From the NCBI RefSeq assembly GCF_963921235.1, contig NC_086097.1, positions 7,440,001-7,504,000 on the forward strand: a DNA stretch of 64,000 nt, in the 5' to 3' direction. This stretch comes from Mobula hypostoma (lineage: Eukaryota). The notes beneath the pieces were generated by a model. It worked only from the letters and a program-made list of their open reading frames with translations. It ran no database searches and was not told the origin of the DNA. Both the position numbers and the translations under genes were made by a program. This document shows, piece by piece, positions 2,740 to 55,794 of this stretch (positions are counted from its first letter, which is position 1; each line of letters starts with the position of its first letter).

Positions 2740-5312
2740 GATAAGATAATTAGGAGCAGAAGTAGGCCATTCAGCCCATTGAGTCTCCTCCGCCATTCTA
2801 TCATGGGCTGATCCAATTCTTCCAGTCATTCCCACACCCCTGCCTTCTCCTCATACCCTTTGATGCCCTGGCTAGTCAAGAACCTATCTACGTCTGCCTT
2901 AAATGCACCCAATGACTTGACCTCCACAGCCACTTGTGGCAACAAATTCCACAGATTTACCACCCTCTGACTAAAGTAATTTCTCTGCATCACTGTTCTA
3001 AATGGACATCCTTCAATCCTGAAGTCATGCCCTCTTGTCCTAGACTCCCCTCCCATGGGAAATAACTTTGCCATATCTAATCTATTCAGGCCTTTTAACA
3101 TTTGGAATGTTTCTATGAGATTCCCCCTCATTCTCCAGGGAGTACAGCCCAAGAGCTGCCAGATGTTCCTCATATGGTACCCCTTTCATTCCTGGAATCA
3201 TTCTCATGAAAATTCTCTGAGCCCTCTCCAATGTCAGTATATTGTTTCCAAAATAAGGAGCCCAAAACTGCACACAATACTCCAAGTGTGGTTTCACGAG
3301 TGCCTTATAGAACCTTAACATCACATCTCTGCTCTTATATTCTATATCTCTAGAAATGAATGCCAACATTGCATTTGCCTTCTTCACCACCGACTCAATC
3401 TGGAGGTTAACCTTTAGGGTACCTTGCACAAGGACCCCCAAGTCCCTCTGCATCTCTGCACTTTAAATTCTCTCCCCATCTAAATAATAGTCTGCCCGTT
3501 TATTTCTTCCACCAAAGTGCATGACCATACCTATATTTTCCAGCATTGTATTTCATTTGCCACTTCCTTATCCATTCCCCTAAGCTATCTAAGTCTCTCT
3601 GCAGGCTCTGTTTCCTCAACATTACCCGCTCCTCCACCTATCTTTGTATCATCGGCACATTTAGCTACAAATCCATTAATTCCATAGTTCAAATCATTGG
3701 CATACATTGTAAAAAGCAGCGACCCCTGTGGAACTCCACTGGTAACCGGCAGCCAGCCAGAATAGGATCCCTTTATTCACACTCTGTTTTCTGCCAATCA
3801 GCCAATGCTCCACCCATGCTAGTAACTTCCCTGTAATTCCATGTGTTCTTATCTTCCTAAGCAGCCTCATGTGCGGCACCTTGTCAAAGGCCTTCTTAAA
3901 ATCCAAGAGCACCACGTCTACTACATCTCCTTTGTCTACCCTGCTTGTAATTTCCTCAAAAAATTGCAGTAGGTTAGTCATGCAGGATTTTCCTTTCAGA
4001 AAACCATGCTGGCTTTGACCTATCTTGTCATGTGCCTCCAGGTACTCCGTAGTCTCATCCCTAGCAATCGATTCCAACAACCTCCCAACCACTGATGTCA
4101 GGCTAACAGGTCTATAGTTTCATTTCTGCTACCTCCCACCCTTTTTAAATAGTGGAGTAATATTTGCAATTTTCCAGTCATCTGATACAATGCCAGAATC
4201 TATTGATTCTTGAAAGATCATTGTTAATGCCTCCGCAATCTCTCCAGCTACTTCCTTCAGAACCCAAGGATGCATTCCATCAGGTCCAGGAGATTTTTCC
4301 ACCCTCAGTCAGTCGTAATTTTCACTGCACATACATCACTTCCCTGACACTTTTTAATGTCCAGTATACTGCAGATGTCTTCCACTGTGAAGACTGATGC
4401 AAAATATGCATTCAGTTCCTCTGCCATCTCTGCATCTCTTACTACAATATCTCCAGCATCATTTTCTGTGGGTCCTATATCTATCCTGAACTCTCTTTTA
4501 CCCTTTATATACTTAAAAAAGCTTTTAGTATCTTCTTTAATATTAGTCACCAGCAAGTTTTCACAATTCATCTTTTTCTTCTGAATGACCTTCTTAGTTT
4601 CCTTCTGAAAATTTTTAAAAGCTTCCCAATCCTCTATCTTCTCACTATCTTTGGCTTCTTTGTATGCCCCCTCTTTTGATATTACTTTGGCTCTGACTTC
4701 ACTTGTCAGCCGTGATAGTGATCTTCTTCCATTTGAAAATTTCTTCTTATTTGGATGTATCTGTCTTGCACTTCCCTCATTATTCACAGAAACACCAGCC
4801 ATTGCTGCTCTGCTGCCCTTCCCGCTGGTGTCTCTTTCCAGTCAACCTTGGCCAGTTCCCCTCTCATGCCACTGTAATTTCCTTCATTCCACTGAAATAC
4901 GGACACATTGGAGTTTAGTTTCTCCTTCTCAAGTTTCAGAGTGAACTTGATCATATTGTAATCACTGTGCCCCAAGGGTTCCTTAACCTTAAGCTCTCTT
5001 ATCACCTCCAGATCATTGCACAACACCCAATCCAGCACAGCCGATCCCCTAGTGGGCTCAACAACAAGCTGTTCTAAAAAGCCATCTTAGACATTCCATA
5101 AATTCTCTCTCTTGAGGTCCAGTACTGGCCCGGTTTTCACAATCCACCTTCATGTTAAAATCCCCAGTGATTATCATGACATTGCCCTTCTGACATGCCT
5201 TTTCTATCTCCTGCTGTAATTTGTAATCCACATCCTGGCTGCCGTTTGGAGGCCTGTATACAAATGCCATGAGGATCCTTTTACAGTTGCCATTTCTTAA
5301 CTCAACCCATGG
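2740..5312 (-). mobile_element. CR1-clade (HER1-like) LINE, 5'-truncated, frameshifted ORF2 (partial APE endonuclease plus RT)
   Basis: ORF pieces VYRPP..GDFN (APE), SQHGFLKGKSCMTNLL..LDFKKAFDKVPH, YKALVKPHLEYCVQFWAPY and FSQRVVNLWNLLP. ataag-type tail at about 2740. Confidence 0.95.
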
Positions 5313-6445: not shown

Positions 6446-6881
6446 CTCTTGTGCCAAGAAGAGGCCACCCTCAAGGTGGAGGAGCAACATCCTATATTCC
6501 ATTTGGGTAGGCTCCAACCTGATGGCACGAGTATCGATTTCTCCTTTCGGTAAAAAAAATGTTCCCTCCCCCACTTCCTCTTCTTCTATTCCGAACTTAG
6601 GCCTCTTGCATTTTCTCACCTACTTATTATCTCCAGTAGAGTCCCTTCCTTCTTTTCTTTCTCTTGTGATCCACTCTCCTCTCCTATTAAATTCCTTCTT
6701 CTTCAGCTCTGGCTTTGCCTATCACCTTCCAGCTATCTTCCTTACTCTCTCCCCCATCTTCTTATTCAGGTGCCTTTCCCCTTCTTTTTCAGTCCTGATG
6801 AAGGGTCTCAGCCTGAAACATTGACTGTTTATTCCTTTCCATTGTTGCTGCCTGCCCTGCTGAGTTCCTCCAGCATTGCTT
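6446..6881 (+). mobile_element. Penelope-like element 3' part (GIY-YIG C-terminus plus pseudo-LTR)
   Basis: EEATLKVEEQHPIFHLGRLQPDGTSIDFS resembles the PLE endonuclease C-terminus. Hammerhead motif at 6791-6826. TSD-like aggatttaagaac (6433-6445) / aggattgcagaac (6882-6894). Confidence 0.85.
6790..6827 (+). ncRNA. Minimal type-I hammerhead ribozyme motif (partly decayed)
   Basis: CAGTC-CTGATGA-A-GGG-TCTCAG-CCT-GAAA-C-ATT-GACTG. Stem I is CAGTC/GACTG. The cleavage triplet has changed to ATT. Confidence 0.65.
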
Positions 6882-6904
6882 AGGATTGCAGAACATTTGG
6901 AAAC

Positions 6905-17244: not shown

Positions 17245-18031
17245 GAGGTAAGTGTGAGGTGGTTCATTTTGGTAGGTCAAATATGATGACAGAATACAGT
17301 ATTAATACTAAGACTCTTGGCAGTGTGAAGGATCAGAGGGATCTTGGGGTCCGGGTCCATAGGGCACTCAAAGCTGCTGTGCAAGTAGACTGTGCAGTTA
17401 AGAAGGCCTTGGCCTTCATCAACCATGGGATTGAGTTTAAGAGCTGAGAGGTAATGTTTCAGCTGTATAGGACACTGGTCAGACCTCACTTGGAGTACTG
17501 TGCTCAGTTCTGATCGCCTCACTACAGGAAGGACATGGAAACCATAGAAAGGGTGCAGAGAAGACTTACAAGGATGTTGCCAGGATTGGGGAGCATGCCT
17601 TATGAGAATAGGTTGAGTGAACTCGGCCTTTTCTCCTTGGAGCGACGGAGGATGAGAGGTGACCTGACAGAGTTGTACAAGATAATGAGAGGCATTGATT
17701 GTGTGGATAATCAGAGACTTTTTCCCAGGGCTGAAATGGCTAGCATGAGAGGGCATAGTTTTAAGGTGTTTGGAAGTAGGTACAGAGGAGATGTCAGGTT
17801 AAGTTTTTTACGCAGAGAGTGGTGAGTGCGTGGAATGAGTTGCCAGCAACGATGGTGGAGGCGGATACTATAGGGTCTTTTAAGAGACTTTTAGATAGGT
17901 TCACGGAGCTTAGTACAATAAAGGGCTATAGGTAAGCCTAGGTAGTTCTAAGGTAAGAGCATGTTCGGCACAGCTTTGTGGGCCAAAGGGCCTGTATTGT
18001 GCTGTAGGTTTTCTATGTTTCTATGTTTCTA
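17245..18031 (+). mobile_element. CR1 LINE 3' fragment
   Basis: ERVQRRLTRMLPGLGSMPYENRLSELGLFSLERRRMRGDL and a (tttctatg)n tail. Confidence 0.92.
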
Positions 18032-18523
18032 ACTTCACTGGCCTCAACACTGAAATGATTTCACAATGTATAGACTCACTTTCAGGGACTCTACAACTCA
18101 TGTTTTCAATATTATTTCTTTATTTGTCTATCTGTTTGTTTGTTTAATCTATTTACTTGTTTATTTTTATTTGTAGAGTTTGTCTTCTTGTGCACATTGA
18201 TTGTTTGTCAGTCTTTGCGTGTAGTTTTTCACTGACTCTGTTCTGTTTCTTTGTATCAGCTGTTGAATGCCTGAAAGGAAATGAATCTCAAAAGAGTATA
18301 TGGTGAAATATATGTACTTTGAAAACAAAGTTACTTTGTTTTCAACTTTGAGTTCCTCTAAACAACCTCAAAAATGTTGAGTACAAAGCAAACCATTTGT
18401 TTGGCATATTACAAGATTTAACTCATTTCAGCATAATACATCTGTAACATCTACCATCTATAACATGCATTGGAGTCTTCCTCAATGGCTTCTCCCAAGC
18501 TCACAAAGTTTACCACTTAGAAT

Positions 18524-18818
18524 TGTAAACACAAAATATTCTGCAGATGCTGGGGTCAAAGCAACACTCACAACACGCTGGAGGAACTCAGCAGGTTGGG
18601 CAGCATCCGTGGAAATGATCAGTTAACATTTCGGGCCGGAACCCTTCATCAGGACTGAAGAGGGAAGGGGCAGAGGCCCTATAAAGAACAAATTTATAGG
18701 GCCTCTGCCTCCTCCCTCTTCAGTCCCGATGAAGAGTTCCAGCCCGAAACGTTGACTGATCGTTTCCACGGATGCTGCCCGACCTGCTGAGTTCCTCCAG
18801 CATGTTGTGAGAGTTGCC
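18524..18818. mobile_element. PLE-derived fold-back (hairpin) mini-element with a hammerhead motif on each arm
   Basis: 125-bp inverted arms (18561-18685 and 18693-18817) with a 7-nt loop. Hammerhead motifs at 18621-18656 (minus) and 18722-18757 (plus). Perfect 14-bp TSD ttaccacttagaat (18510-18523 / 18819-18832). Confidence 0.92.
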
Positions 18819-18904
18819 TTACCACTTAGAATGACAGGGCAAGGAGGTACATGGGGACCTCAGCATCAACAAGTTCCTCTCCAAATCATCACCTGACTTC
18901 TGAG

Positions 18905-19480
18905 GCCCTCCATTGGCTACGGTCAACCATAGATATTAGTTGTTTACAGCCTTAGCTGTTTACATGGTACACAAGCTGGTATGCAAGCCAAAGTACGATA
19001 TGGAGAGCAAGCTGTTACTCATGCAGTAGGCTCCCTGTCTCCACACATCTGATGGTTCCAAAGTAATGGTAGAGAACGATACAGTTTGGCACCAGTGGCA
19101 CTGCAGGAGTTGCCAGTCAGCATTGAACTCAACAATATACTGCCTTAGGGACTGCAGCTCTGAATTTTTCCTGGAGGTTTACTTCCAAAGCCTTTCCCAT
19201 GAGTGGGTATAGCTGCTAGACAGAGGATGTTTGACACTGAAGTTTTCCTTCTCCTCGATGAGCTGCCAATAATGGCTGACGAGCCCCATCTGCCTGAACT
19301 GTCTGGTTTTAAATCCACCATGGCCTCTTCTCCTGTCAGTAGAAATAGCTCTGGCAGGCTCAGTAGCTAAGCTGTATGTGAAGACCGAGAGATGAACTTA
19401 GTTGTCAGAGACTATTTGAAATGCACAACATTCAGAGCATTTAACAGGTAGTGGGAGGTAATCCCCACTTCAGCCCCACT
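18905..19480 (-). mobile_element. RTE-derived non-autonomous element (decayed)
   Basis: The minus strand reads ggcagctcatcgaggagaaggaaaact, an RTE 5'-UTR-like motif. Shares a segment with the SINE at 8375-8619. Confidence 0.6.
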
Positions 19481-21069: not shown

Positions 21070-22000
21070 CAAACAGTACACCATCGAGGGCAGGACTCCT
21101 AACAGTGTTGAAGAGGAGAGGGATCTCAGGTTTCAAGTTCATAGCTCCCTGAAAATGGCTACTCAGGTTGATAAGGTGATTAAGAAGGAATATTTGCTTT
21201 TATTAATCATGCATTGTGTTCAGAAATCAGGAAGTTATGTTGCAGCTTTACAAAACTCCAGTTAGGCTGCATCTTGGGTATTGCATGCAGTTTTGGTCAC
21301 CTCATTATTTGAAGGATGCTGAGGCTTTAGAGAGCTTGCAGAAGAGGTTTACCAAGATGTTCTCACAATCAAGAGAAATCTGCAGATGCTGGAAATTCAA
21401 GCAACACACACAAAATGCTGGAGGAACACAACGGACCAGGCAGCATCTATGGAAAAGATGGGTCTTCCGAGTTCTGTACCTTTTTTCATAGGTGCTGCCT
21501 GGCCTCCTGATTTCCTCCAGCGTTCTGTGTGTGTTACTAGGACGCTGTCTGGATTAGAGGGCATGTGCTATAACAAGACATTAGACAAACTCATATTGTT
21601 TTCTCTGGACTGGCGGAGGCTAAGAGGAGATCTGATGGAGGTTTATAAGATTATGAGAGGTATAGATAGAGTAGGCAGACAGTATCTTTTGCCTTTGGTT
21701 GAAATGTCTAATACCAGTGGACATGCACTTGAGGTAAGAGGGGCTAATTTCAAAGGAGATGTGAGGGGCAAGTTTTTACACAGAGAGTGATGGTAACCTG
21801 GAATGCACTGCCTGGAGTGGTGGTAGAGGCAGATACTTTAGGATCTTTTAAGAGATTTTTAGATAGACACATGAATGTGAGGAAAACAGAGGGATATGGG
21901 CATTGTGTAGGCAGAAGGGAGTAGGTCATTTGATTACTAAATTATTTAGTTTAGCACAACTTTGTGAGCTGAAGGACCTGTTGCTATTTGTACTGTTCTA
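21070..22000 (+). mobile_element. CR1 LINE 3' fragment, interrupted at 21362-21533
   Basis: EVMLQLYKTPVRLHLGYCMQFWSPHY and RRLRGDLMEVYKIMRGIDRV. Confidence 0.9.
21362..21533. mobile_element. PLE-derived fold-back mini-element lacking the hammerhead segment
   Basis: Inverted arms (acacacaaaatgctggagga..ctatggaaaa and ttttcatagg..tcctccagcgttctgtgtgt). The CR1 target is duplicated as ttaccaagatgtt (21349-21361) / ttactaggacgct (21534-21546); an intact target, ttaccaggatgct, is at 53821-53833. Confidence 0.75.
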
Positions 22001-24744: not shown

Positions 24745-25185
24745 CTTTTGCCTATCATTTCTCCTGGAGCACCTCTTCCTTCCCTTTCTTCTGTGGTCCA
24801 CTTTTCTCTCCTATCAGATTCCTTCCTTTCCAGGCCTGTATCTTTCCCACCCACCTGGTTTAACCTATCACCTTCTAGCTATCCTCCTTCCCCTCCCAGC
24901 ACCTTTTTGTTCTGGTGTCGTCCCCCTTCCCTTCCAGTCCTGAGGAAGGGACTCAGTCCAAAACGTCGACTTTCATTCATTTCCATGGATGCTCCCTGAC
25001 CTCCTGAGTTCCTCCAGTATTTTGTGTGTGTTGGAGATGATTCTTCAGCCCTGACAAAGAGCCTCAGCCCGAAATATCAGCTGTTTATTCATTTCCACAT
25101 ACATTTCCTGTCTTGCTGCATTCCTCCAGCATTTTTTTTTGTGTGTTGCTCTGGATTTCCAGCACCTGCAGAATCTCTTATGTTG
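24745..25185 (+). mobile_element. PLE pseudo-LTR with a tandem partial duplication (two hammerhead remnants)
   Basis: Similar to 6600-6880. Hammerhead-like motifs at 24936-24971 and 25047-25082. Confidence 0.8.
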
Positions 25186-25946
25186 ACAATCTTACCTGGC
25201 TGCATAATCTCATCTTTCAAGATCTGACCCTCATAAGGTTTTCCGGCTGCAATCTTTCCCTGTAATTTAGTTTTCCCTATGTCCTATGATACTAGTTGTG
25301 TGTATGGTAATGTGTGAGGTATTATAAGCACTGCAAAAGAATGATTGTATTAAGGGAGATCCACTCTAATATCATTGGGTTATTTTCATATATTATCAAC
25401 CACCATCAATCACCAGCTATGGAACCATACAAAGCTAAATAAGTTAGAGCAATGTGATAAAAGCTAATCGTATCTCTTAAATTAAATTAACATTTACATA
25501 ATCAGTTTGTACCTCAAGGGTCCTAAAGTTGAAGCAGCATCAATTATATTCTTTGCTACTTGCTGATGCTAACTGAGCTACAACATAATGGCCTTATAAT
25601 CAATGCTTATTGGCTGGTATAAAAATTGTTTAAAAATGAAGGACAGATTACAAGACTAATTTCCGTCAAGTACAGTTGTAGCATTGTACGGCACAGATAG
25701 ATCATTACTGGTTACTTAGTCAAACATCATTCTTTAATATGCATCAAAAGAAGGTTAGAAGACGGATAATGTATCTGGTACAAGGAGTTCTTCCTTCAGT
25801 GCAGCTTTGTAGTGTTGGAACCTGATTCAAATTGAGGCAGGGAGAATCCTTTTACACTCCCGGTTATATGTCAGAAAAGGTAACATTACATGCAGTTGTG
25901 CATCTAGATATTGTAATTCTGGATAACGTTCGCAAATATTAACACA

Positions 25947-26739: not shown

Positions 26740-26960
26740 CACAATACAAAATGCTGGAGGAACCCAGCAAGAGAGGTAGAATCTATGGAAAGGAATACAG
26801 AGTTGATATTTTAGGCCAATACCCTTTAGTAGAACTGGAAAGGAAAGGGAAAGAATCCTTCCAGCCGTGAAGAAGGGTCTCGTCACAAAACATCAAAACT
26901 TTATTCCTTTCCATAGATGCTGCCTGACGTGTTGCGTTCCTCCAGCATTTTGTGTGTATT
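26740..26960. mobile_element. Old PLE-derived fold-back element
   Basis: Inverted arms acaaaatgctggaggaac / gttcctccagcattttgt. Strongly decayed hammerhead remnants at 26801-26836 (minus) and 26863-26898 (plus). Confidence 0.7.
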
Positions 26961-27425
26961 AGATAGATAGATAGATACGTAGATAGAAAGATAGATATAC
27001 TTTATTGATCCCAAGGGAAACTAGGTTTCGTTACAGCAGCACCAACCAAGAATAGAGCATAAATATAGCAATACAAAAACCACAAACAATCAAACAACAA
27101 TATGCAAACTATACCAGATGGAAATAAGTCCAGGACCAGCCCGAACGGTCTGGAAGCCGTCCATGGAAAAGTTTTGATCGGGTATGTCCTCGTGCAGCCC
27201 CGTTTCAGTAAAATACATAACACTGCACTGCCGAAATGTTCTCTGACTCCTGGCTAGCGCCGTGAACTCGTCCATTTTATTACCCACCGATCTCCTCTTC
27301 TCCATAAGTCTTTGTTGTCTCGATCCGGTCCTCTTTCCTTGCCTTTGTGATCCCCCTTTGCATCCCCTGTGTGCTTTCCTCCAGATTTCAGCAGGGGTGT
27401 CCGCCACTCTGTTCCTATTACTTTG
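26961..27425 (-). mobile_element. Rex1/Babar-like internally deleted element (APE N-terminus fused to 3' UTR with a (TATC)n tail)
   Basis: RSVGNKMDEFTAL..CSVMYFTETGLHEDIPD..DGFQTVRA joined directly to an AT-rich 3' UTR and (gata)n at 26961-26997. Confidence 0.75.
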
Positions 27426-30603: not shown

Positions 30604-30698
30604 TTTGGCAAGCTTTTCTCATCTCTGCACTGAACTGAGGCCGTGGCCTGCTACTAAGGAGCTCCTGGATCAGCTGTGACTGGCTTTGTGACTGTGAA

Positions 30699-31556
30699 GA
30701 ACTCAGCAGGCCAGGCAGCATCTAGGAAAAATTAGTCGACACTTTGGCCCAGAACATCGAATGTACTCTTTTCTTAGGTAAACACCAGGAAATCTGCAGA
30801 TGCTGGAAATTCAAGCAACACACACAAAATGCTGGTGGAACGCAGCAGGCCAGACTGCACCCATAGGAAGAAGTACAGTCGGGACGTTTCGGGCCGAGAC
30901 CCTTCGTCAGGACTAACTGAAAGAAGAGACAGTAAGAGATTTGAAAGTGGGAGGGGCAGGGGGAGATCTGAAATGATAGGAGAAGACAGGAGGGGGAGGG
31001 ATAAAGCTAAGAGCTGGAAAGTTGATTGGCAAAGGGGATACAAGGCTGGAGAAGGGAGAGGATCATGGGACGGGAGGCCTAGGGAGAAAGAAAAGGGGAG
31101 GGGAGCATCAGAGGAAGATGGAGAGCAGGCAAGGAGTTATAGTGAGAGGGACAGAGAGAGAAAAAAGAGAGACAAAAAAAGGAGGGGGGGATAAATAAAT
31201 AAATAAACAAACAAACAAACAAACCAATAAATAAAGGATGGGGTAAGAATGGGAGGAGGGGCATTAATGGAAGTTAGAGAGTCAATGTTCATGCCATCAG
31301 GTTGGAGGCTACCCAGACAGAATATAAGGTGTTGTTCCTCCAACCTGAGTGTGGCTTCAATTTGACATTAGAGGAGGCCATGGATAGACATATCAGAATG
31401 GGAATGGGACATGGAATTAAAATGTATGGCCACTGGGAGATCCTGCTTTCTCTGGCGGACAGAGCGTCTTTTCCCAGGTGCTGCCTGGCCTCCTGAGTTC
31501 CTCCAGCGTTTTTTGTGTGTCGCTTGGATTTCCAGCACCTGTAGATTTTCTCTTGT
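30699..31556 (-). mobile_element. Penelope-like element insertion (GIY-YIG C-terminus, pseudo-LTR, inverted terminal copy)
   Basis: RSVRQRKQDLPVAIHFNSMSHSHSDMSIHGL and EEQHLIFCLGSLQPDGMNID. Hammerhead at 30877-30914 with a 2-nt insertion. Inverted pseudo-LTR at about 31467-31556. TSD ttgtgactgtgaa (30686-30698) / tcgtggctgtgaa (31557-31569). Confidence 0.9.
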
Positions 31557-36365: not shown

Positions 36366-36621
36366 CACACCAGGACTACCAGACTCAAAGAGAATTGGTT
36401 AATTTGCAAAGTAGCAAAGGGTAACATCAGAGCAATATTTGAATGTGTTGAAGTGATCTCCTGCTGTGGAACATTCAAAGGTAAGATTCTCAGCTAGTCG
36501 TCTGGTGGACTAGCCTGGTCTCTGCCAAACAAAATGTTCAGATTCTGTGAACCGCTTCTAGGTATGTAGCCAGAAAGTAAAATAGAAAAATTGTACTGGA
36601 CTGAAATTGGTGCTTTCAACT

Positions 36622-36863
36622 GTAAACACAAGAAAGTCTGCAGATGCTGGAAATCTGGAGCATCACATTCAAAACCCTGGAGGAATTCAGTAGGTTAGGC
36701 AGCATCTATGGAAAAGAGTAAACAGTTGATGTTTCAGGCCGGGACCCTTCCTTAGGCTCTGCCAGTGATATTAAACCTGAAGAAGAGTCTCCACCCGAAA
36801 TATCAAATGTTTACTCTTCTTCACAGATGCTGCCTGATCTGTTGAGTTCTTCCAATATTTGCA
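36622..36863. mobile_element. PLE-derived fold-back mini-element
   Basis: Inverted arms with decayed hammerheads at 36724-36758 (minus) and 36774-36808 (plus). TSD ggtgctttcaact (36609-36621) / ggtgttttcaagt (36864-36876). Confidence 0.8.
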
Positions 36864-37254
36864 GGTGTTTTCAAGTTGGCCATTTGAATCATTGGTATGA
36901 ACATTAATGATTTTATGAGGGTTGGGCATGGTTGGGACACACTGGATGAGTTACATAATATCCATAACTATGAGAAAACTGATTTAAGATTACTGAATTC
37001 TAATGATATTTTTAATTTAATTTAAAAAGAGGAGTTATTTCAAACACTTTCCATCCAAAAGTACAACAAATAAAATATGCCACAACTTTCCTAATCAGCC
37101 ACATGTCTCTTCTACTCAATCCTACGTTTCCCTTCTCTAACTTGTGCCTCTCTGCCTCGACATTACACCTCTCCTACTCAACCTCATGTCTCTCCTAGAA
37201 AATATTGTTTTGCCACCATTCTGAATTGCATGGTAAACAATGAGAATAATGACG

Positions 37255-37781
37255 TAAACACGAGGAATTCTGCAGATGCTGGAAATTCAAGCAACACACA
37301 TCAAAGTTGCTGGTGAACGCAGCAGGTCAGGCAGCATCTCTAGGAAGAGGTACAGTCGACGTTTCGGGCCGAGACCCTTCGTCAGGACTAACCGAAAGAA
37401 GAGCTAATAAGAGATTTGAAAGTGGGAGGGGGAGGGGGAGATCCAAAATGATAGGAGAAGACAGGAGGGGGAGGGATGGAGCCAAGAGCTGGATAGGTGA
37501 TAGGCAAAAGGGATATGAGAGGATCATGGGACAGGAGGCCCAGGGAGAAAGAAAAGGGGGAGGGGGGAAAACCCAGAGGATGGGCAAGGGGTATAGTCAG
37601 AGGGACAGAGGGAGAAAAAGGAGAGAGAGAGAAAGAATGTGTGTATATAAATGAATAACGGATGGGGTACGAGGGGGAGGTGGGGCATTAACAGAAGTTA
37701 GAGAAGTCGATGTTCATGCCATCAGGTTGGAGGCTACCCAGACGGAATATAAGGTGTTGTTCCTCCAACCTGAGTGTGGCT
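37255..37781 (-). mobile_element. Penelope-like element 3' part (young copy)
   Basis: The minus strand encodes LEEQHLIFRLGSLQPDGMNIDFSNFC-stop followed by the pseudo-LTR. Closely similar to 30778-31355. Confidence 0.9.
37353..37390 (-). ncRNA. Minimal type-I hammerhead ribozyme, intact core
   Basis: UAGUC-CUGACGA-A-GGGU-CUCG-GCCC-GAAA-C-GUC-GACUG. Stem I, the CUGANGA and GAAA core, palindromic ACGU stem III and a GUC cleavage triplet are all present. Confidence 0.82.
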
Positions 37782-39329
37782 GTGCATTCTTGACACTAGA
37801 AGAACGAGGGGGGACCCCACTGCTGTTGCTTGGTGGGTGGTGGGCATTAATGCCTTTTGCTGAAATGGGTGGGGGGCAGAGGGGGGAGGTTGATGTTTTG
37901 CAGCTGCTTGTGCACATGAGGTGGGAAAGAGGACTTTGGGGTTCTAACATTTTTCTGTCGTTCCTTCTTTTAGGTTTCTTCTATTATTTATGGATGTCTG
38001 CAAAGAGCAAGAATTTCAGGTTTTATGCTGTATATATTCTCTGATATTAAATAGAAACATTGAAGTCTATTGAATATTGAAAAGCCTGGATAGAGGATGT
38101 GGAGAGGGTATTTCCTATAGTGGTTGATTCTAGGACAGAGGGCATATTTTTCCTTGACAGGGATCCAGGGTTTTCTTTGTTTCATGGCTGTCTGTGGGAA
38201 GCCAAATCCCAGAGTTGGATACTGCATGCATAGTTTGATAATAAATGTACTTGAACCTTGAACCCTGTGCAAATAGATCTGCTATTAAGCTTTGGTCTTT
38301 GGAGTAGCACAGAACAAGTGCAATAAGTCTGCGCAATTACTAATAGAAACACCACACAACAGATAAATTAAACCATTTATTTATTTTAAAAGCTAGTTCT
38401 ATTCATTCTTGTTCAAATATTTGTCCATTCCATTATTGTTATACACCATTGGACAATGAGCTGTAGAAGTAAATATCCCTTAGCTGTTCCTATACGTCTA
38501 AATGACATAACTCACACTAAAAGATCAAGGATCAACCTTATTCACCATATACAGTGGGTTTACATGTAACAGGAATTTGCTGTAATGTCTTGGCTTGACT
38601 AAGCAACAAAAACAACATTCAATGGTTCTATAAAATAAATAAAGCGGTTTAAAGTGTTTACAGCGCAGTGAAGAGACTGAGTTAATAGATGGAGCGTCTG
38701 GGAGTGGGGGGGGGCTAACTGCAATGGTTGATCAGATTAACTGTTTGGGGGAAGAAATTTTTAAGACTGTGTGAAGTGTTTTAATAGCCCTATAGTGCTT
38801 TCCTGAAGGCAGCTTTTGAGAAAGCCCATTTGTGGGTGGGTAGCATACACAAATATGTATGTATTTATTGATTTGATTGATTGATTGAGATAGAGTCTGA
38901 AATCAGTTAACCTACTATCGGGTACAGCTTTGGACTGTTGAGAAGAAACAGGAGAATCTGGAGAAAACGGACACATTGCACGGGAAAGACATACCAACTC
39001 CTAACAGATGACGTCGGAACTGAACTTCGAGCCCCAACTGACCGAGCTAGAATAGTGTTGCACAAACCACTCCTCAACTGTGGCATCCCATTTTTAGCCT
39101 CCAGGATTTCTTCCTGCCAAAAACGCAGTACATCAGTATTGAAGCATCTAAAAGATGCATTCTGGACGAGCCGGCAGGAGTCATAGGAATGAACAAATTC
39201 TTTGATGTTTCGAAAATCTGTTAAACATCAGGACATTTCCACTCTTTTTTACTGCAAGCCATTCAGTTTAAGATGTTGTTATGTGTACAAATCGAGGCGA
39301 GAAGACTGCAACAAGCGGGGCACTTTCTA

Positions 39330-40617
39330 CGTCACCCCGAGCTACCTACCGGCCTAGTCATCATATGGGAGACCAAGCATGGGAGGATGAACCCTGGGCA
39401 CATTGTTGGTAGACTCTCAGGTGGTGACGAGAGGGTGCACAGGTGCCACAGCAACAACCTGGCACTCAATGAAAAAGTCTTACTCAACGTAAGACGAAAG
39501 AGCTGATTGTGGACTTCAGGAAGGGTAAGATGAAGGAACTCATACCAATCCTCATAGAGGGATCAGAAGTGGAGAGAGTGAGCGGCTTCAAGTTCCTGGG
39601 GGTCAAAATCTCTGAGGATCTAACCTGGTCCCAACACATTGATGTAGTCATAAAGAAGGCAAGACAGCGGCTATACTTTATTCGGAGTTTGAAGAGATTT
39701 GGCATGTTAACAAATACACTCAAAAACTTCTATAGTTGTACCATGAAGAGCATTCTGACAGGCTGCATCACTGTCTGGTGTGGAGGGGCTACTGTACAGG
39801 ACCAGAAGAAGCTGCAGAAGGTTGTAAATCTAGTCAGCTCCATCTTGGGTACTAGCCTACAAAGTACCCAGGACATCTTTAGGGAGCGGTGTCTCAGAAA
39901 GGCAGTGTCCATTATACTTCATACTTTATTATCGCCAGACAATTGATACTAGAGCGTACAATCATCACAGCGATATTTGATTCTGCGCTTTGCACTCCCT
40001 GGAGTACAAGTCGATAGTAAATATTAAAAAATTAAATTATAAATCATAAATAGAAAATAGAAAAGGGAAAGTAAGGTAGTGCAAAAAAACAGAGAGGCAG
40101 GTCCGGATATTTGGAGGGTACTGTCCAGATCTGGGTCAGGATCCATTCAGCAGTCTTATCACAGTTGGAGAGAAGCTGTTCCCAAATCTGGCCGTACGAG
40201 TCTTCAAGCTCCTGAGTCTCCTCCCTGAGAGAAGAGGGACGAGAAGTGTGTTGGCATTATTAAGGACCTCCAGCACCCAGGGCATGCCCTTTTCTCACCG
40301 ATACTTTCAGGTAGGAGGTACAGAAGCCTGAAGGCACAAACTCAGAGATTCAGGAACAGCTTCTTCTCCTCTGCCATCCGATTCCTAAATGAACATTGAA
40401 TCTTTGGACACTTCCTCACTTTTTTTTAATATGCAGTATTTCTGTTTTTGCACTTTTAAAAAAATCTATTCAGTGTATATAATTGATTTACTTGTTTATT
40501 TATTATTATTATCACTATTTTTTTCTCTGCTAGATTATGTATTGCATTGAACTGCTGCTGCTAAGTTGACAAATTTCACGTCACATGCCGGTGATAATAA
40601 ACCTGATTCTGATTCTG
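39330..40617 (+). mobile_element. Rex1/Babar-like LINE 3' part, with a nested minus-strand LINE tail at 39916-40254
   Basis: KFLGVKISEDLTWSQHI..KKARQRLYFIRSLKRFGM..SILTGCITVW. The nested insert is flanked by cattat (39910-39915 / 40255-40260). Confidence 0.9.
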
Positions 40618-45023: not shown

Positions 45024-45770
45024 ATAGAAACATAGAAAACCTACAGCACAATACAGGCCCTTCGGCCCACAAAGCTGTGCCAAACATGTCCCTACTTTAG
45101 AACTACCTAGGATTTACCCATAGCCTTCTATTTTTTCTAAGCTTCATGTAGCCTTCCAGGAGCCTCTTAAAAGACTCTATCGTTTCCGCTGCCGGCAGCC
45201 CATTCCACACACTCACCACTCTCTGCGTAAAAAACTTACCCTTGACATCTCCCCTGTACCTTCTTCCAAGCATCTTAAAACTACGCCCTCTCGTGCTAGC
45301 CATTTCAGCCTTGGGGAAGAACCTCTGACTATCCACACGATCAATGCCTCTCATTATCTTGTACCTCTCAGGTCACCTCTCATTCTCCGTCGCTCCAAGG
45401 AGAAAAAGGCCAAGTTCACTCAACCTATTCTCATAAGGCATGCTCCCCAGTCCAGGCAACATCCTTGAAAATCTCCTCTGCACCCTTTCTATGTTTTCCA
45501 CATCCTTCCTGTACTGAGGCAACCAGAGCTGAGCACAGTACCCCAAGTGGAATCTGACCAGGGTCCTATATAGCTGCAACATTACCTCCTGGCTCTTAAC
45601 CTCAATCCCACAATTGATGAAGGCCAATGCACCATATGCCTTTTTAACCACAGAGTCAACCTGTGTAGCCGCTTTGAGTGTCCTATGCACTCGGACCCCA
45701 GGATCCCTCTGATCCTCCACACTGCCAAGAGTCTTACCATTAATGCTATATTCTACTATTACATTTGACC
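45024..45770 (-). mobile_element. CR1 LINE 3' fragment
   Basis: ORFs 45103-45354 and 45373-45720 and an (aaacatag)n tail. Confidence 0.92.
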
Positions 45771-46360
45771 TATGATGGTTGAGGCTTTATAAATCACTGG
45801 TGGGGCCTCACTTGTATCTTGAGCAGTTTTGAGCCCTTTATCTAAGAATGGATGTGCTGACATTGGAGAGAGATCAAAGGAGGTTCACAAAGATCATACC
45901 ATGTTGAAAAGCTATATAAGGAAAGTTTGATGGCTCTAACTCTGTACTCACTGGAATTCAGAAGAATAAGGGGTGATCTCATTGAAACCAATTGAATGGT
46001 GAAAGGCCTTGATAGAGTGGATGCAGAGAGAATGTCTCCTATAATGGGTGAGTCAAAGACCAGAGGACACAGCCTCAGAATAGAGAGGCATCCTTTTTAG
46101 AATGAAGATGAGGAGGAATTTCTTTAGCCAGAAAGTGATGAGTCTGTGGAATTTGTTGCCATAGGCAGCTGTGGATGCCAAGTCATTGGATATATTTAAG
46201 GCAGAGACTAATTGATTTTTCATCTTTCAGGGCACAAAGTGATACAGCAAGAAGGAAGAGATTAAGTCTGAGACTGAAAATGGATCAGCCATGATGAAAT
46301 GGTGGGGCAGACTCAGTGGGCCGAATGACTTAATTCTGGTGTTGTATCTTACGGTCTTAT
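45771..46360 (+). mobile_element. CR1 LINE 3' fragment (different subfamily, back-to-back with the previous one)
   Basis: Similar to 13808-14360. Confidence 0.85.
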
Positions 46361-47810: not shown

Positions 47811-49136
47811 TCTTATAATAATAATTGAAATATATAAATTACAATAAGAAATATATAAAAATTAAATAAAGTAAGTAGAGCAAAATGAGAGCAATAAAAA
47901 TAGCGAAGTAGTGTACAAGGGTTCATTGTTCAATCAGAACTGTGATGGCAGAGGACGAAAAGCTGTTGTCTTCAGGCACCTGTACCTCCTCCATGATGGT
48001 AACAATGAGAAGTGGGCATGTCTAATGGACTTATGGTATTCTCTGGAGTTTAGAAGAATGAGAGACAATACCACCAACTTTTGCAAGATTCTTACAAGGC
48101 TTGCCCAAAGAGATGTGTGGGAGATAATTTCCTTGGCTGCAGAACCTAGAAACAGAACTCACAGTTTCAGAACAAAGGATATTGTGCCGTCGGTTTTTCT
48201 ATGTTCTATGTTTTATGATAGGCTGCTCGATACTGAGATAAGGAGAATTTTCTTCACTCCAAAGATGACCGTTTTAAATTCTCTACCTCACAGCTTTATC
48301 ATCGTGTTCTTTCAAAGCTGGAATTGACAGATCTCTGGAAATGAAGGAAATCTAGGGATATGGGGAAACTACTGGAAAATAACACAAAGATAAAAGATCT
48401 GTAAAGACTATAAGACACAGGAACAGAATCAGGCCATTCTGCCCATCATGGCTGATTTAATATCCCTCTCAACCCCATTCTCCTGCCTTCTCCCTATAAT
48501 CTGATGCTGTGACTAATCAAAAACCTATCAACCTCCACTTTAAATATACCCAATGACTTGCCTTCCCTTTCTGTTACATTGCCTCCACAACAATAAATCC
48601 CACAGATTCACTGCCCTCTGGCTAAAGAAATTCCTCTTCATTTCTGTTCTAAATGGATGACCCACTGGTCTGAGACTCCCCCACTGTAGGAAACTTCTTC
48701 TCCAAATACACTCTGGCTAGGCTTTCCAATATTTGATAGGTTAATCCAAAACCTATTACCACTTTTCTATCTCTTACTATCTTTCTTAAAAAGGACACTT
48801 CTTTAACCCGCACTTAAATAAATAGATAAATGTATGTAACAAAACCAGAGAAATAACATATATTTCCTGATGCTCCAATCAGTTCAAAAACCCTCCTTTG
48901 CTTGTTTGACTGAGATAATATTGACAAATATCCAATTAGAGAATCAGTCTTTGCTTTCTCTTGTACTGTGTTTTTAAAAGCAAAGATAATTCCTTTCATG
49001 TTGAGGACTATAACTCATAACTTACTGTATATTCCATAACAGGAAATTCCTTGACGACTCCAGTATTCATTTGAACAGCAGTAAAGAAAGTAAAAACAAA
49101 TTTAAAGGCAACTACCTTTTGGAGTGACACCCATTA

Positions 49137-50883
49137 TAGAAACATAGAAAACCTACAGCACAATATAGGCCCATCGGCCGACAAAACTGTGCCGAACATG
49201 TCCTTACCTTGAAAATTATCTAGGTTTACCTATAGCCCTCTGTTTAACTGAGCTTCATGTACCTGTCCAGGAGTTTGTTAAAAGACCCTATCATATCCGC
49301 CTCCACCACTGTCGCTGGCAGCCCATTCCACGCACTCACCACTTTCTGCGTAAAAAACTAACCACTGACATCTCCTCTGTACCTACTTCCAAGCTCCTTA
49401 AACCTGTGCCCTCTCATGCTAGCCATTTCAGCCCTGGGAAAAAGCCTCTGACTATCAACACAATCAATGCCTCTCATCATTTTATACACCTCTATCAGGT
49501 CAAATCTCACCCTCTGTCACTCCAAGGAAAAAAGGTCAAGTTCACTCAACCTATTCTCATAAGGCATGCTCCCCAATCCAGGCAACATCCTTGTAAATGT
49601 CCTCTGCACCCTTTCTATGGTTTCCACATCCTTCTTATAGTGAGGCAAACAGAACTGAGCACAGTACTCCAAGTGAGGTCTGACCAGGGTCCTATATAGC
49701 TGCAACGTTACCTCTTGGCTCCTAAACTCAGTCCCACGATTCATGAAGGCCAATGCATCATATGTTTTCTTAACCACGGAGTCAACATTTGCAGCAGCTT
49801 TGAATGTCCTATGGACTCGGACCCCAAGATTCCTCTGATCCTCCACACTGCCAAAAGTCTTACCATTAATACTATATTCTGCCATCATATTTCACCTACC
49901 AAAATGAACCACTTCACACTTATTTATGTTGAACTCCATCTGCCTGCCACTTCTGAGCCCAGTTTTTCATCCTATCAATGTCCCACTATAACATCTGACA
50001 GCCCTCCACACTATCCAAAACACCTCCAACTTCTGAGTCATCAGCAAATTTATTAACCCATCCCTCCACTTCCTCATCCTGTTCATTTATAAAAATCACA
50101 AAGAATAGAGGTCCCAGAACAGATCCCTGAGGCACACTACTGGTCACCGACCACCATGTAGAATATGACCTGTCTACAACCACTCTTTGCATTCTGTGGG
50201 CAAGCCAGTTCTGGATCCACAAAGCAATGTCCCCTTGGATCCTATGCCTCCTTACTTTCTCAATAAGCCTTGTACGGCACACCTTATCAAATGCCTTGCT
50301 GAAATCCATATACACTACATCTACTACTCTACTTTCATCAATGTCTTTAGTCACATCCTCAAAAAATTCAATCAGGCTCGTAAGACACGACCTGCCTTTC
50401 ACAAGGCCATGCTGACTATTCCTAGTCATATTATGCCTCTCCAAATGTTCATAAATCCTGCCTCTTAGGATCTTCTCCATCAACTTACCAACCACTAAAG
50501 TAAGACTCACTGGTCTATAATTTCCTGGGCTATCTCTTCTCCCTTAAATCTTGTTGGATAATAGATCAACATCAGCAACTCTCCAATCTTCTGGAACCTC
50601 TCCCGTCCCCATTGATGATGCAAAGATCATCGCCAGAGGCTCAGCAATCTCCTCTCTTGCCTTCCATTGTAGCCTGGGGTACATCTCATCCAGTTCCGGT
50701 GAATTATCCAACTTGATGCTTTCCAAATGCTCCATCACATCCTCTTTTTTAATATCTATATGCTCAAGGTTTTCAGTCCACTGTAACTCATCCCTACAAT
50801 CGCCAAGATCCTTTTCCATAATGAGTACTGAAGCAAAGTACTCAGTAAGTACCTTTGCTATCTTCTTCGGTTCCATACACACC
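49137..50883 (-). mobile_element. CR1 LINE, 5'-truncated, decayed RT
   Basis: SQHGLVKGRSCLTSL..DFSKAFDKV..SVPQGSVLGPLFF..KFADD. Confidence 0.95.
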
Positions 50884-55200: not shown

Positions 55201-55794
55201 GAGGCAGTAGACAGACAGTATCTCTTTTCTCAGGGTTGGAATGTCTAACACCAAAGGTCATGCTTTTACTGTGAGAGGGGATAATTTCAAAGGAGATGTG
55301 AGAGGCAAGTTTTTTTTTACACAGAGAGAGGTGGATGCTTGGAGTGCACTGCCTGAGGTGGTGTTAGAGGCAGATACATTAGGGACTTTTAAGAGGTTCT
55401 TAGACAGGCACATGAATGTGAAGAAAATGGAAAGATATGGACAATGTGTGGGCAGAAGAGATTAGTTTAGTTGGTCATTTAACTGGTTCGGCAGAGCATT
55501 GTGAGTCAAAGGGCCTGTTCCTGTCCCGTTCTATGCTCTACATTCTGAAGTGTTGCCCAATATTAAGACCATAAAAGCATAAAGTTTAGGAATAGAATTA
55601 GGCCATTTGTCCCATCGAATCTGTACCACAATTTCATCATGGCTGATCCATTTTCCATCTCAGCCCCAGTCTCCTGCCTTCTCCCCATTTATCGCTTCAT
55701 GCTTTGTCCAATCAAGAATCAATCAATCTCTGCCTTAATTATACCCAACGACTTGACCTCCACAGCCACGGGGGCAATGAATTCCATAAATTCC

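What the first reader, a model, noticed from the sequence alone, without database searches (positions are those of the whole stretch)
18510..18832. Fold-back mini-retroelement carrying a hammerhead ribozyme motif on each arm
Seen: a 295-bp insert between perfect 14-bp direct repeats (ttaccacttagaat). It consists mostly of two 125-bp inverted arms with a 7-nt loop (gaacaaa). Each arm carries the hammerhead motif: AGTC-CTGATGA-A-GGG-TTCCGG-CCC-GAAA-T-GTT-AACT on minus (18621-18656) and AGTC-CCGATGA-A-GAG-TTCCAG-CCC-GAAA-C-GTT-GACT on plus (18722-18757). There is no coding sequence. Established: Penelope-like elements carry minimal hammerheads in their pseudo-LTRs and often have an inverted terminal copy. 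Inference: this is either a non-autonomous hairpin unit mobilised by PLE reverse transcriptase or a stereotyped product of fold-back priming. A transcript from either strand would be a rod-like RNA holding one ribozyme and its antisense, reminiscent of viroid-like or retrozyme RNAs, and a possible source of dsRNA or siRNA. Both cores here carry substitutions, so this copy is probably inactive.
Basis: partly seen in the sequence, partly recalled or inferred. Interest (0 to 1): 0.85.

Follow-up and report, generated by a model that had tools for sequence, protein, structure and literature searches.

The report
Dead Penelope-like retroelement fold-back insertion
This 295-base hairpin-shaped insert is a decayed, severely shortened copy of a Penelope-like jumping gene, whose way of integrating often leaves two head-to-head copies that each carry a small self-cutting RNA motif, so it is a tidy example of a known pattern and not a new kind of element.

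Summary
A 295-bp insert (18524-18818) lies between perfect 14-bp direct repeats. It has two 128-nt inverted arms (12 mismatches) and a 7-nt loop, and each arm carries a minimal type I hammerhead motif.

The motif shows the published hallmarks of Penelope-like-element (PLE) mini-hammerheads: an extra base between positions 9 and 10.1, a G10.1-C11.1 pair, palindromic 15.2-16.2, and no helix III. One arm alone carries a 34-nt extension. This matches the 30-40-nt "tail" described for PLE insertions, which has been explained by two adjacent reverse-transcription start sites.

The unit belongs to a very abundant family, with 18 fragments in this window and tens of thousands of contigs in two organisms' DNA runs. 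In the window, 5 of 11 family loci are head-to-head doublets and none is tail-to-tail. Their junctions differ. Other copies run past the focal loop point into other sequence.

It is therefore a one-event by-product of PLE integration, old and dead, and shared by a second organism. It is not a self-propagating hairpin family. The plus-arm core is mutated, and only the stems of the minus arm are weakened. No PLE ORF, transcription of the locus or ribozyme activity was shown. Low novelty.

The parts
18510..18523 (.). Left target-site duplication, TTACCACTTAGAAT
   Evidence: 14/14 identical to 18819-18832. In organism B's contig it carries 2 differences, at 18517 and 18519 (table 3).
18524..18557 (-). 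34-nt 'tail': the extreme 3' end of the unit (...CTGCAGAATATTTTGTGTTTACA on the minus strand), present on the left arm only
   Evidence: It has no partner in the right arm. The same terminus is seen in other window copies at 36621, 37254, 30778 and 25187. It matches the one-sided 30-40-bp PLE tail, which is the stretch between two RT start sites.
18558..18688 (-). Left arm: a 5'-truncated unit in ribozyme-sense on the minus strand
   Evidence: The inverted repeat runs to 18685. Family contigs align on to 18688 before they diverge (tables 7, 8).
18619..18658 (-). Minimal type I hammerhead of the left arm. Helix I is UCAGUC/AACUGA, the core is CUGAUGA with an extra A, helix II is GGGU/GCCC with loop UCCG, followed by GAAA and UGU. 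The predicted cut lies between 18625 and 18624.
   Evidence: Read. The core is unchanged. 18628 and 18624 differ from 70% and 90% of family depth respectively (table 3).
18689..18692 (.). Junction filler CAAA between the two arms.
   Evidence: Other copies continue after 18688 with different letters (tables 5c, 7).
18693..18818 (+). Right arm: the same unit in ribozyme-sense on the plus strand. It is 5'-truncated within 3 nt of the left arm's truncation point, and it ends 34 nt short of the unit's 3' end.
   Evidence: Its outer end lies near unit position 133-135, close to the tail-less ends of other copies at 25033, 26961 and 398.
18720..18759 (+). Minimal type I hammerhead of the right arm, with C in place of U4 (18727) and A in place of a helix II G (18735). 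The predicted cut lies between 18753 and 18754.
   Evidence: 92% and 97% of family depth carry T and G at these two places (table 3).
18819..18832 (.). Right target-site duplication

Best explanation
This is a dead insertion made in a single event by the integration machinery of a Penelope-like element (PLE). It is either an extremely 5'-truncated PLE copy or a short non-autonomous derivative of one.

Shown:
- One pair of 14-bp target-site duplications encloses two copies of the same roughly 130-165-nt 3'-terminal unit.
- The copies lie head to head, with 5' ends inside and 3' ends outside. Each carries the PLE-type minimal hammerhead, and only one has the 34-nt terminal tail.

Inferred:
- A staggered double cut left two 3'-OH ends.
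- The top-strand end (...AGAAT) primed reverse transcription at the distal start site of the RNA and gave the arm with the tail.
- The bottom-strand end (...GGTAA) primed at the proximal start site 34 nt upstream and gave the tail-less arm.
- Both cDNAs ran to almost the same 5' point of the template, perhaps because one 5'-shortened RNA was copied twice.
- They were joined by a template jump that left 4 extra bases (CAAA).

Since then the arms have decayed by about 9% from each other, mostly by transitions, and the plus-arm ribozyme core has been hit. The hammerhead is a relic of the parent element's RNA biology and has no role at this locus. A read-through transcript would fold into a 128-bp hairpin.
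For: (1) Hammerhead type. [quoted passage not shown] These are the hallmarks listed by Cervera & de la Pena 2014 (passages).

(2) Family variation. In one search, table 3, the depth-weighted majority at the four places where the arms deviate gives the canonical letters (X1 shares): 18727, 92%; 18735, 97%; 18624, 90%; 18628, 70%.
- The common polymorphisms sit at N7 (18648, 57%; 18730, 74%), at H17 (18625, 31%; 18753, 25%) and in loop II (18639, 18640, 18741). A hammerhead tolerates change at these positions.
- No variant of 10% or more is listed at C3, G5, A6, G8, A9, A13 or A14.
- 13-14% decay is listed at the C11.1/G12 CpG.

(3) Architecture. Craig et al. 2021 (passages) describe PLE insertions as highly 5'-truncated, often with an inverted 5'-truncated copy adjoining, and with a 30-40-bp tail often at only one end. 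Here the tail is 34 nt and sits on one arm.

(4) Mechanism. Frangieh et al. 2024 (main text) show that a purified PLE protein cleaves and extends both target strands. It starts reverse transcription at two adjacent internal sites, and the interval between them is the tail.

(5) Recurrence in the window. The 18 nhmmer hits group into 11 loci: 5 head-to-head doublets, 0 tail-to-tail, 2 direct and 4 single.
- 3' ends fall into two classes about 34-38 nt apart.
- Three of the 5 doublets have the tail on one arm only.
- The upstream unit of the tandem at 24918-25187 is tail-less.

(6) One event. There is a single pair of target-site duplications. The arms are 91% alike, against about 68-79% identity of either arm to the other window copies over matches of 90 nt or more. 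Eleven of the 12 differences are transitions, 6 of them in CpG context. Both arms share C at the position where 67% of family depth has T (18780 and its mirror).

(7) Not a hairpin family. The doublets differ in spacer and junction position. Contigs of other copies leave at 18688. A different opposite-strand joint (18620|18771) occurs in three runs (table 5).

(8) Age. Organism B's contig spans the left junction (18350-18552) with 2 differences (record 25).
Against: - No PLE ORF was found. None of the 39 longer ORFs and none of the 53 ORFs upstream of longer copies has a GIY-YIG or PLE-type hit. The reverse-transcriptase fragments in the window look like jockey-type LINE RT. The PLE assignment therefore rests on the ribozyme type and the insertion architecture alone.
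- The inner ends of the two arms coincide within 3 nt, and within about 1-4 nt at 36621-36858. Two independently truncated cDNAs would not be expected to do this, so an extra assumption is needed: the same RNA 5' end, or snap-back.
- The 13 window copies give no significant covariation for helices I and II (3 pairs with changes on both sides; 93 of 500 shuffles reach that value).
- No Rfam hammerhead model matches.
- Ribozyme activity was not tested, and PLE mini-hammerheads are reported to be weak in vitro.
- Whether a few copies elsewhere share this exact junction could not be settled. No genome is held, and one search lists only 32 of about 102,000 laid pieces.
Confidence: 0.75

Rival explanations
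1. Same element and same single event, but the second arm was made by snap-back. One target-primed cDNA, starting at the tail end, left the RNA near 18688, folded back on itself and was copied back. The hairpin's 3' end was then joined to the other target end through the TT(G)ACC/TTACC microhomology.
For: - The arms are nearly symmetric around a small loop, differing by 3 nt with a 4-nt filler. The same is seen at 36621-36858.
- The right arm's outer end overlaps the target duplication by a short imperfect match, GTTGCCTTACC against the unit's GTTGCTTTGACC.
- Self-priming hairpins are a known property of reverse transcriptases (recalled, not checked here).
Against: - Snap-back does not by itself explain why the second arm stops where other, non-hairpin copies of the family also end, at 25033, 26961 and 398. 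That point is where the published model places a second RT start site.
- Three of the 5 doublets are clearly asymmetric, by about 21, 35 and about 190 nt. Snap-back would need large loops to account for them.
Confidence: 0.15
2. It is a self-standing hairpin mini-retroelement. The fold-back unit as a whole is transcribed and copied by PLE reverse transcriptase, giving a family of copies with one shared loop junction.
For: The insert has clean 14-bp target duplications and a compact 295-bp body. The family is very abundant in DNA runs and in runs guessed to be RNA.
Against: - None of the 4 other doublets in the window shares the junction.
- Contigs of other copies continue past 18688 into other sequence. 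This covers 73 contigs with a common loose end in X5, and two joints of depth 538 and 119.5 in X1.
- Depth falls about 100-fold over the inner part of the right arm, from 1.27 million at 18658-18679 to 11,362 at 18702-18723 (table 2).
- The arm differences look like post-insertion decay.
Confidence: 0.05
3. It arose from two independent insertions of the same family side by side, or from a later inverted duplication of a single copy by a replication or repair error.
For: The family is dense, at about 3% of the window (2,040 of 64,000 nt in nhmmer hits), so chance neighbours occur. An example is 30696-30755 next to 30778-30917.
Against: - Only one pair of target duplications encloses both arms, and no second pair is seen.
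- The arms belong to a young subfamily that has no other copy in the window, and they share rare letters.
- Orientation is 5:0 in favour of head-to-head, whereas chance adjacency should give both orientations.
- The one-sided tail recurs.
Confidence: 0.05

Closest known systems
Penelope-like element insertions with an adjoining inverted 5'-truncated copy and a one-sided 30-40-bp tail (Craig et al. 2021, PMC8557442, passages read; the Evgen'ev & Arkhipova 2005 and Arkhipova 2006 work cited there was not read)
   Same: Heavy 5' truncation, a head-to-head inverted copy, a tail at one end only (34 nt here), a hammerhead in the terminal repeat, and tandem forms in the same family (24918-25187).
   Different: Here nothing but the last 130-165 nt is present on either side, with no ORF and no pseudo-LTR pair. 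The autonomous partner was not found in the window.
Minimal type I hammerheads of metazoan PLEs (Cervera & de la Pena 2014, PMC4209133, passages read)
   Same: [quoted passage not shown] Massive copy number and high sequence variability within one genome.
   Different: Helix II is 4 bp with a tetraloop. Activity of this family is untested. At this locus one copy has C at position 4.
PAc (Poseidon of Anolis carolinensis) in vitro integration (Frangieh et al. 2024, PMC11167929, abstract and main text read)
   Same: Both target strands are used as primers. There are two RT start sites whose spacing equals the tail. The hammerhead lies some tens of nucleotides upstream of the start sites.
   Different: In PAc the start sites lie inside the beginning of the ORF. 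In this family the region downstream of the hammerhead has no long open frame (read). Head-to-head joining was not reconstituted in that paper.
Non-LTR retrozymes of animals (Cervera & de la Pena 2020, PMC7229834, passages read; Li, Clavereau & Pollet 2026 preprint, 10.64898/2026.07.22.740005, abstract and first part of Results read)
   Same: Short non-coding hammerhead-bearing units linked to PLEs and dispersed in very many copies. The preprint also reports monomeric derivatives of retrozymes.
   Different: Retrozymes are direct tandem repeats with canonical type I hammerheads and give circular RNAs. This locus is an inverted pair with the minimal variant, and no circle can be excised from it by two same-strand ribozymes.
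Twin priming of LINE-1 (Ostertag & Kazazian 2001; recalled, not read here)
   Same: Both 3' ends of a staggered target break prime on retroelement RNA, giving an inverted 5' part inside one pair of target duplications.
   Different: Twin priming inverts a different, upstream segment of the element. Here both arms cover the same segment.

Membership tests
PLE minimal hammerhead (min-HHR) | Catalytic core CUGANGA ... GAAA | tested here: met
   The minus arm has it intact (18646-18652, 18629-18632). The plus arm has CCGAUGA, with C at U4 (18727). The family majority is canonical (table 3). Five regex matches in the window against 0.085 expected.
PLE minimal hammerhead (min-HHR) | [quoted passage not shown] | tested here: met
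   An extra A lies at 18645 (minus arm) and 18733 (plus arm). The pairs are G18644-C18633 and G18734-C18745. The column is invariant in the 13 window copies (A29 and G30 of alignment A1).
PLE minimal hammerhead (min-HHR) | Palindromic 15.2-16.2 with no stable helix III or loop 3, implying dimer-only activity | tested here: met
   The plus arm has ACGU directly followed by U17. The minus arm has AUGU, and 70% of family depth restores C15.2. Dimer formation and cleavage were not tested.
PLE minimal hammerhead (min-HHR) | Helices I and II supported by compensatory changes | tested here: inconclusive
   72.9% of cells are paired, against 16-43% when the partner is slid. Only 3 pairs have changes on both sides, and 93 of 500 shuffles reach that value (13 decayed copies).
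Penelope-like element insertion | A 30-40-bp tail present at one end, that is, two alternative 3' termini | tested here: met
   The 34-nt extension is on the left arm only. Window copies end either at ...GTGTTTACA or near unit position 130-134.
Penelope-like element insertion | High 5' truncation with partial tandems and/or an adjoining inverted 5'-truncated copy | tested here: met
   Of 11 family loci in the window, 5 are head-to-head, 2 direct and 4 single.
Penelope-like element insertion | Autonomous partner encoding RT plus a GIY-YIG endonuclease | tested here: not met
   None of the 92 ORFs scanned (39, 53) has a GIY-YIG hit. The RVT_1 fragments resemble jockey-type LINE RT. This covers the window only. 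The genome is not held, so the genome-wide question is not testable here.
Non-LTR retrozyme | Direct tandem repeats of a unit with a canonical type I hammerhead (loop 1-loop 2 contacts), expressed as circular RNA | tested here: not met
   The focal locus is an inverted pair and not a tandem, and its motif is the minimal variant. Circular RNA is not testable here.
Rfam hammerhead families | Match to a curated covariance model | tested here: not met
   No matches at gathering score in the window, and no hammerhead family at E<=10 in 18400-18950. This is expected for a motif without helix III.

The most novel reading that the evidence does not exclude
The integration machinery leaves a head-to-head doublet at about two in five loci of this family (5 of 11 in the window). 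The genome could therefore hold tens of thousands of near-perfect 60-130-bp hairpins. When host transcription reads through them, they would yield dsRNA against the element's own ribozyme and RT-entry region. That would be a self-made small-RNA brake on the family. The near-symmetric junctions would arise because a dimeric PLE particle, perhaps held together through the dimer-only hammerhead, copies RNA from both target strands at once.
Probability: 0.12. Interest if true: 0.55.

Novelty: new member of a known kind. Interest (0 to 1): 0.2.

Why it matters
The locus mainly serves as a compact worked example. In 323 bp it shows every published hallmark of Penelope-like integration:
- the minimal dimer-type hammerhead;
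- an inverted 5'-truncated copy;
- the tail on one side only;
- a single pair of target duplications.

These features agree with the 2024 in vitro result that both target strands are extended from two start sites.

It also flags that this genome and a close relative carry an extremely abundant family of this type. Such a family creates many long inverted repeats, which are hard to assemble and could be a source of dsRNA. It does not reveal a new kind of element or ribozyme.

Tried and rejected
- Rfam: no match at gathering score over the whole window. In E-value mode the region matches no hammerhead family; nearly all listed matches are miRNA-precursor families, and I read them as generic hairpin matches.
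- Whole genome: not held, so the proposed genome-wide BLAST of the junction could not be run.
- Earlier findings of the scan: nothing for this genome, this sequence or its relatives. A word search gave two notes from a rotifer genome.
- Metagenome scans: the exact junction string and an intact family hammerhead string each gave 0 matches. The collection is unlikely to hold this animal, so this says nothing.
- Coding capacity: Pfam on 39 long ORFs and on 53 ORFs upstream of the longer copies gave no GIY-YIG or PLE-type hit.
- The 402-aa RT ORF at 54021-55229(-): 0 hits in a PDB sequence search. A protein-atlas search gave jockey-like LINE RT.
- Origin of the loop bases: aligning the focal unit to the longer copies at 30778-31375 and 37254-37803 failed to place them, because the region upstream of the hammerhead is too diverged between subfamilies.
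- Sequencing runs: no RNA holder of the locus is listed. The two runs guessed to be RNA cover the repeat but not the unique flanks, and they may contain DNA, so nothing is concluded about expression of this locus.
- In those runs the 3' half of the unit has a 3-8-fold higher depth relative to DNA than the hammerhead half. I do not use this, because contig depth is a poor measure.
- Depth as copy number: the tool warns against it, so I quote only orders of magnitude.
- Covariation on window copies was not significant.
- One search failed on a mistyped bracket string and was corrected.

Full report
**What is in the sequence**

The insert 18524-18818 (295 bp) lies between two perfect copies of TTACCACTTAGAAT, at 18510-18523 and 18819-18832. 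Inside it, 18558-18685 and 18693-18820 are inverted arms of 128 nt, 91% complementary, with 7 nt between them. The 12 arm differences comprise 11 transitions, 6 of them in CpG context. This is what two initially identical copies would look like after neutral decay. As RNA the insert folds into a single hairpin of -242.7 kcal/mol (z = -30; 0 of 200 shuffles fold as well).

The insert is asymmetric: the left arm runs on for 34 more bases at its outer end (18524-18557).

**The ribozyme motif**

Read in ribozyme sense, each arm spells a type I hammerhead. The elements are:
- helix I, UCAGUC paired with GACUGA;
- the core CUGAUGA;
- one extra A;
- helix II, GGGU/GCCC with a tetraloop;
- GAAA;
- ACGU with no loop, followed by U17 and the cut site.

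The minus-arm copy (18619-18658) keeps the whole core. It has U for C15.2 (18628) and A for the first base after the cut (18624). The plus-arm copy (18720-18759) has C for U4 (18727) and A for a helix II G (18735).

Cervera & de la Pena 2014 (passages) list the features that recur in the minimal hammerheads of metazoan Penelope-like elements (PLEs). [quoted passage not shown] All of these are present here.

Rfam has no match: none at gathering score in the window, and no hammerhead family at E<=10. This is expected for a motif that lacks helix III. A simple expression for the motif finds 5 matches in the window, against 0.085 expected from 200 shuffles.

**The unit is a member of a very large family**

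nhmmer with the 169-nt unit finds 16 further fragments in the window, which makes 18 hits including the two focal arms. They are about 68-79% identical to the focal unit over matches of 90 nt or more.

Four public runs were laid on 18350-19000 at 85% likeness or more. The result was 48,469 contigs from a DNA run of organism A and 43,043 from organism B. Summed depth over the arms is up to five orders of magnitude above the single-copy flanks (14.1 and 9.67). The tool warns that this is not a copy number.

The letters that most of these copies carry are informative (table 3; X1 shares). At the four places where the focal arms depart from a canonical hammerhead, the family majority is canonical:

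| Place | Position in the hammerhead | Share of family depth with the canonical letter |
|---|---|---|
| 18727 | U4 | 92% |
| 18735 | helix II G | 97% |
| 18624 | first base after the cut | 90% |
| 18628 | C15.2 | 70% |

The common polymorphisms lie at N7 (57% and 74%), at H17 (31% and 25%) and in loop II. No variant of 10% or more is listed at C3, G5, A6, G8, A9, A13 or A14. This is the pattern expected if the source elements kept a working hammerhead.

There is a caveat: the contigs were selected by likeness to this stretch. On the 13 decayed window copies, helices I and II are 72.9% paired, against 16-43% when the partner is slid, but covariation is not significant.

**The architecture is the published PLE architecture**

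Craig et al. 2021 (passages) describe three features of PLE insertions:
- they are highly 5'-truncated and often sit in partial tandems;
- a 30-40-bp tail is often present at only one end.

Frangieh et al. 2024 (abstract and main text) purified a PLE protein. It cleaves and extends both target strands. Reverse transcription starts at two adjacent internal sites of the RNA, and the sequence between these sites is the tail.

The focal insert fits point for point. Its 3' ends face outwards and its 5' ends inwards, and one arm has a 34-nt tail that the other lacks.

The window supplies its own replication of this pattern. The 18 hits group into 11 loci: 5 head-to-head doublets, no tail-to-tail pair, 2 direct arrangements and 4 single copies. 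Copy ends fall into two classes. One class has the tail (...CTGCAGA...GTGTTTACA at 18524, 36621, 37254, 30778 and 25187). The other is tail-less near unit position 130-134 (25033, 26961, 398 and the focal right arm). In 3 of the 5 doublets the tail is on one arm only. In the tandem at 24918-25187 the upstream unit is tail-less.

**Hairpin family or by-product?**

The other four doublets have spacers of 178-207, 25, 46 and 19 nt, and they have different inner end points.

In the public runs, many contigs of other copies align up to 18688 and then continue into GGTGGGGGG... instead of turning back. The evidence is a common loose end in 73 contigs of X5, two joints of depth 538 and 119.5 in X1, and records 7, 8, 11, 15 and 31, which end at 18688. 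A different opposite-strand joint, 18620|18771, is seen in three runs.

These data also show two further things. The left arm really reaches 18688, so the true filler is the 4 nt CAAA. And the parent element continues upstream, so both arms are 5'-truncated.

I could not examine all copies. No genome is held, and only 32 of about 102,000 laid pieces are listed. A small set of copies with the same junction is therefore not excluded.

**One event, and old**

Four observations point to one event with one template:
- a single pair of target duplications encloses both arms;
- the arms are closer to each other (91%) than to any other copy in the window;
- they share a letter that two thirds of family depth lacks (18780 and its mirror);
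- their differences are transition-dominated.

A contig of organism B crosses the left junction with 2 differences in 203 nt (record 25). The insertion therefore predates the split of the two organisms.

**Mechanism and what remains open**

I infer a staggered double cut. The top-strand 3' end (...AGAAT) primed at the distal RT start site, and the bottom-strand 3' end (...GGTAA) primed at the proximal one. The two cDNAs were then joined head to head.

The open point is why the two inner ends coincide within 3 nt. The same happens within about 1-4 nt at 36621-36858, whereas three other doublets are asymmetric by about 21, 35 and about 190 nt. Either one 5'-shortened RNA was copied from both sides, or the second arm was made by snap-back of the first cDNA. 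The second option is kept as a rival. Its weakness is that it does not explain why the second arm ends where non-hairpin copies also end.

**Limits**

- No PLE ORF was found. None of the 92 ORFs scanned has a GIY-YIG hit, and the RT fragments in the window look like jockey-type LINE RT. The family could therefore be a non-autonomous PLE derivative, as the 2026 preprint proposes for vertebrate retrozymes, or simply the truncated end of an element whose body lies elsewhere.
- It is not a retrozyme in the defined sense. Retrozymes are direct tandems with canonical type I hammerheads that yield circular RNAs.
- No RNA holder of this locus is listed.
- Ribozyme activity is untested, and PLE mini-hammerheads are reported to cleave poorly in vitro or only with protein.

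**Verdict**

It is an ordinary, dead product of Penelope-like integration: a new member of a known kind, of low interest. Its value is as a clean natural illustration of the two-start-site, two-strand model.

I did not test that note.

Noticed in passing
window-wide; e.g. 398-502, 1346-1700, 6772-6897, 21375-21545, 24918-25187, 26746-26961, 30696-30917, 31469-31549, 36621-36858, 37254-37392: The hammerhead-bearing unit is a very abundant repeat. There are 18 nhmmer fragments totalling about 2,040 nt, or 3% of the window. At 85% likeness or more, 48,469 contigs of organism A's DNA run and 43,043 of organism B's were laid on it.
   Followed up: partly
37358-37385 (-) and 30883-30910 (-): Two older copies keep a complete canonical min-HHR string (CUGACGA, extra A, GGGU/GCCC, GAAACGUC). 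In the 30861-30931 copy, 2 extra bases follow the predicted cut site. The copy at 37339-37406 also has an intact helix I.
   Followed up: partly
24918-25187 (+): A direct tandem of two units joined by 8 nt. The upstream unit ends tail-less near unit position 131 and the downstream unit has the full tail. This is the partial-tandem (pseudo-LTR-like) form of the same family.
   Followed up: partly
30778-31375 and 37254-37803 (-): Two longer copies are 79% alike over about 600 bp, so some subfamilies extend at least 450 bp upstream of the hammerhead. No Pfam-recognisable coding sequence is found there.
   Followed up: partly
beyond 18688, in other copies (tables 5c, 7): In the parent subfamily the 30 nt upstream of the hammerhead seem to be tandemly repeated. 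Contigs go from 18688 through 13 other letters back to 18659. This suggests a roughly 43-nt repeat in the region that would be the pseudo-LTR.
   Followed up: no
18350-18552: A contig of a differently labelled organism (B) spans the left flank, the target duplication and 29 nt of the insert with 2 differences. The insertion therefore predates the split of organisms A and B. The flank differs by about 1%, against 9% between the arms.
   Followed up: partly
26960-26997: A (TAGA)n microsatellite starts exactly at the tail-less outer end of a doublet arm. Craig et al. 2021 (passages) report insertion bias for microsatellites, in the N-terminal-EN PLE clades (Naiad, Chlamys).
   Followed up: no
3694-4119 (-), 49986-50543 (-), 54021-55229 (-), 39473-39946 (+): LINE remnants. 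Three ORFs hit RVT_1 and one hits ALKBH8_N. The 402-aa ORF resembles jockey-like chordate RT clusters. They belong to repeats of 1-1.8 kb present several times in the window.
   Followed up: partly
17249-18024, 45024-45772, 49136-49922: Another repeat of about 770 bp is present three times at 84-86% identity. One copy ends about 500 bp upstream of the finding. It was not identified.
   Followed up: no
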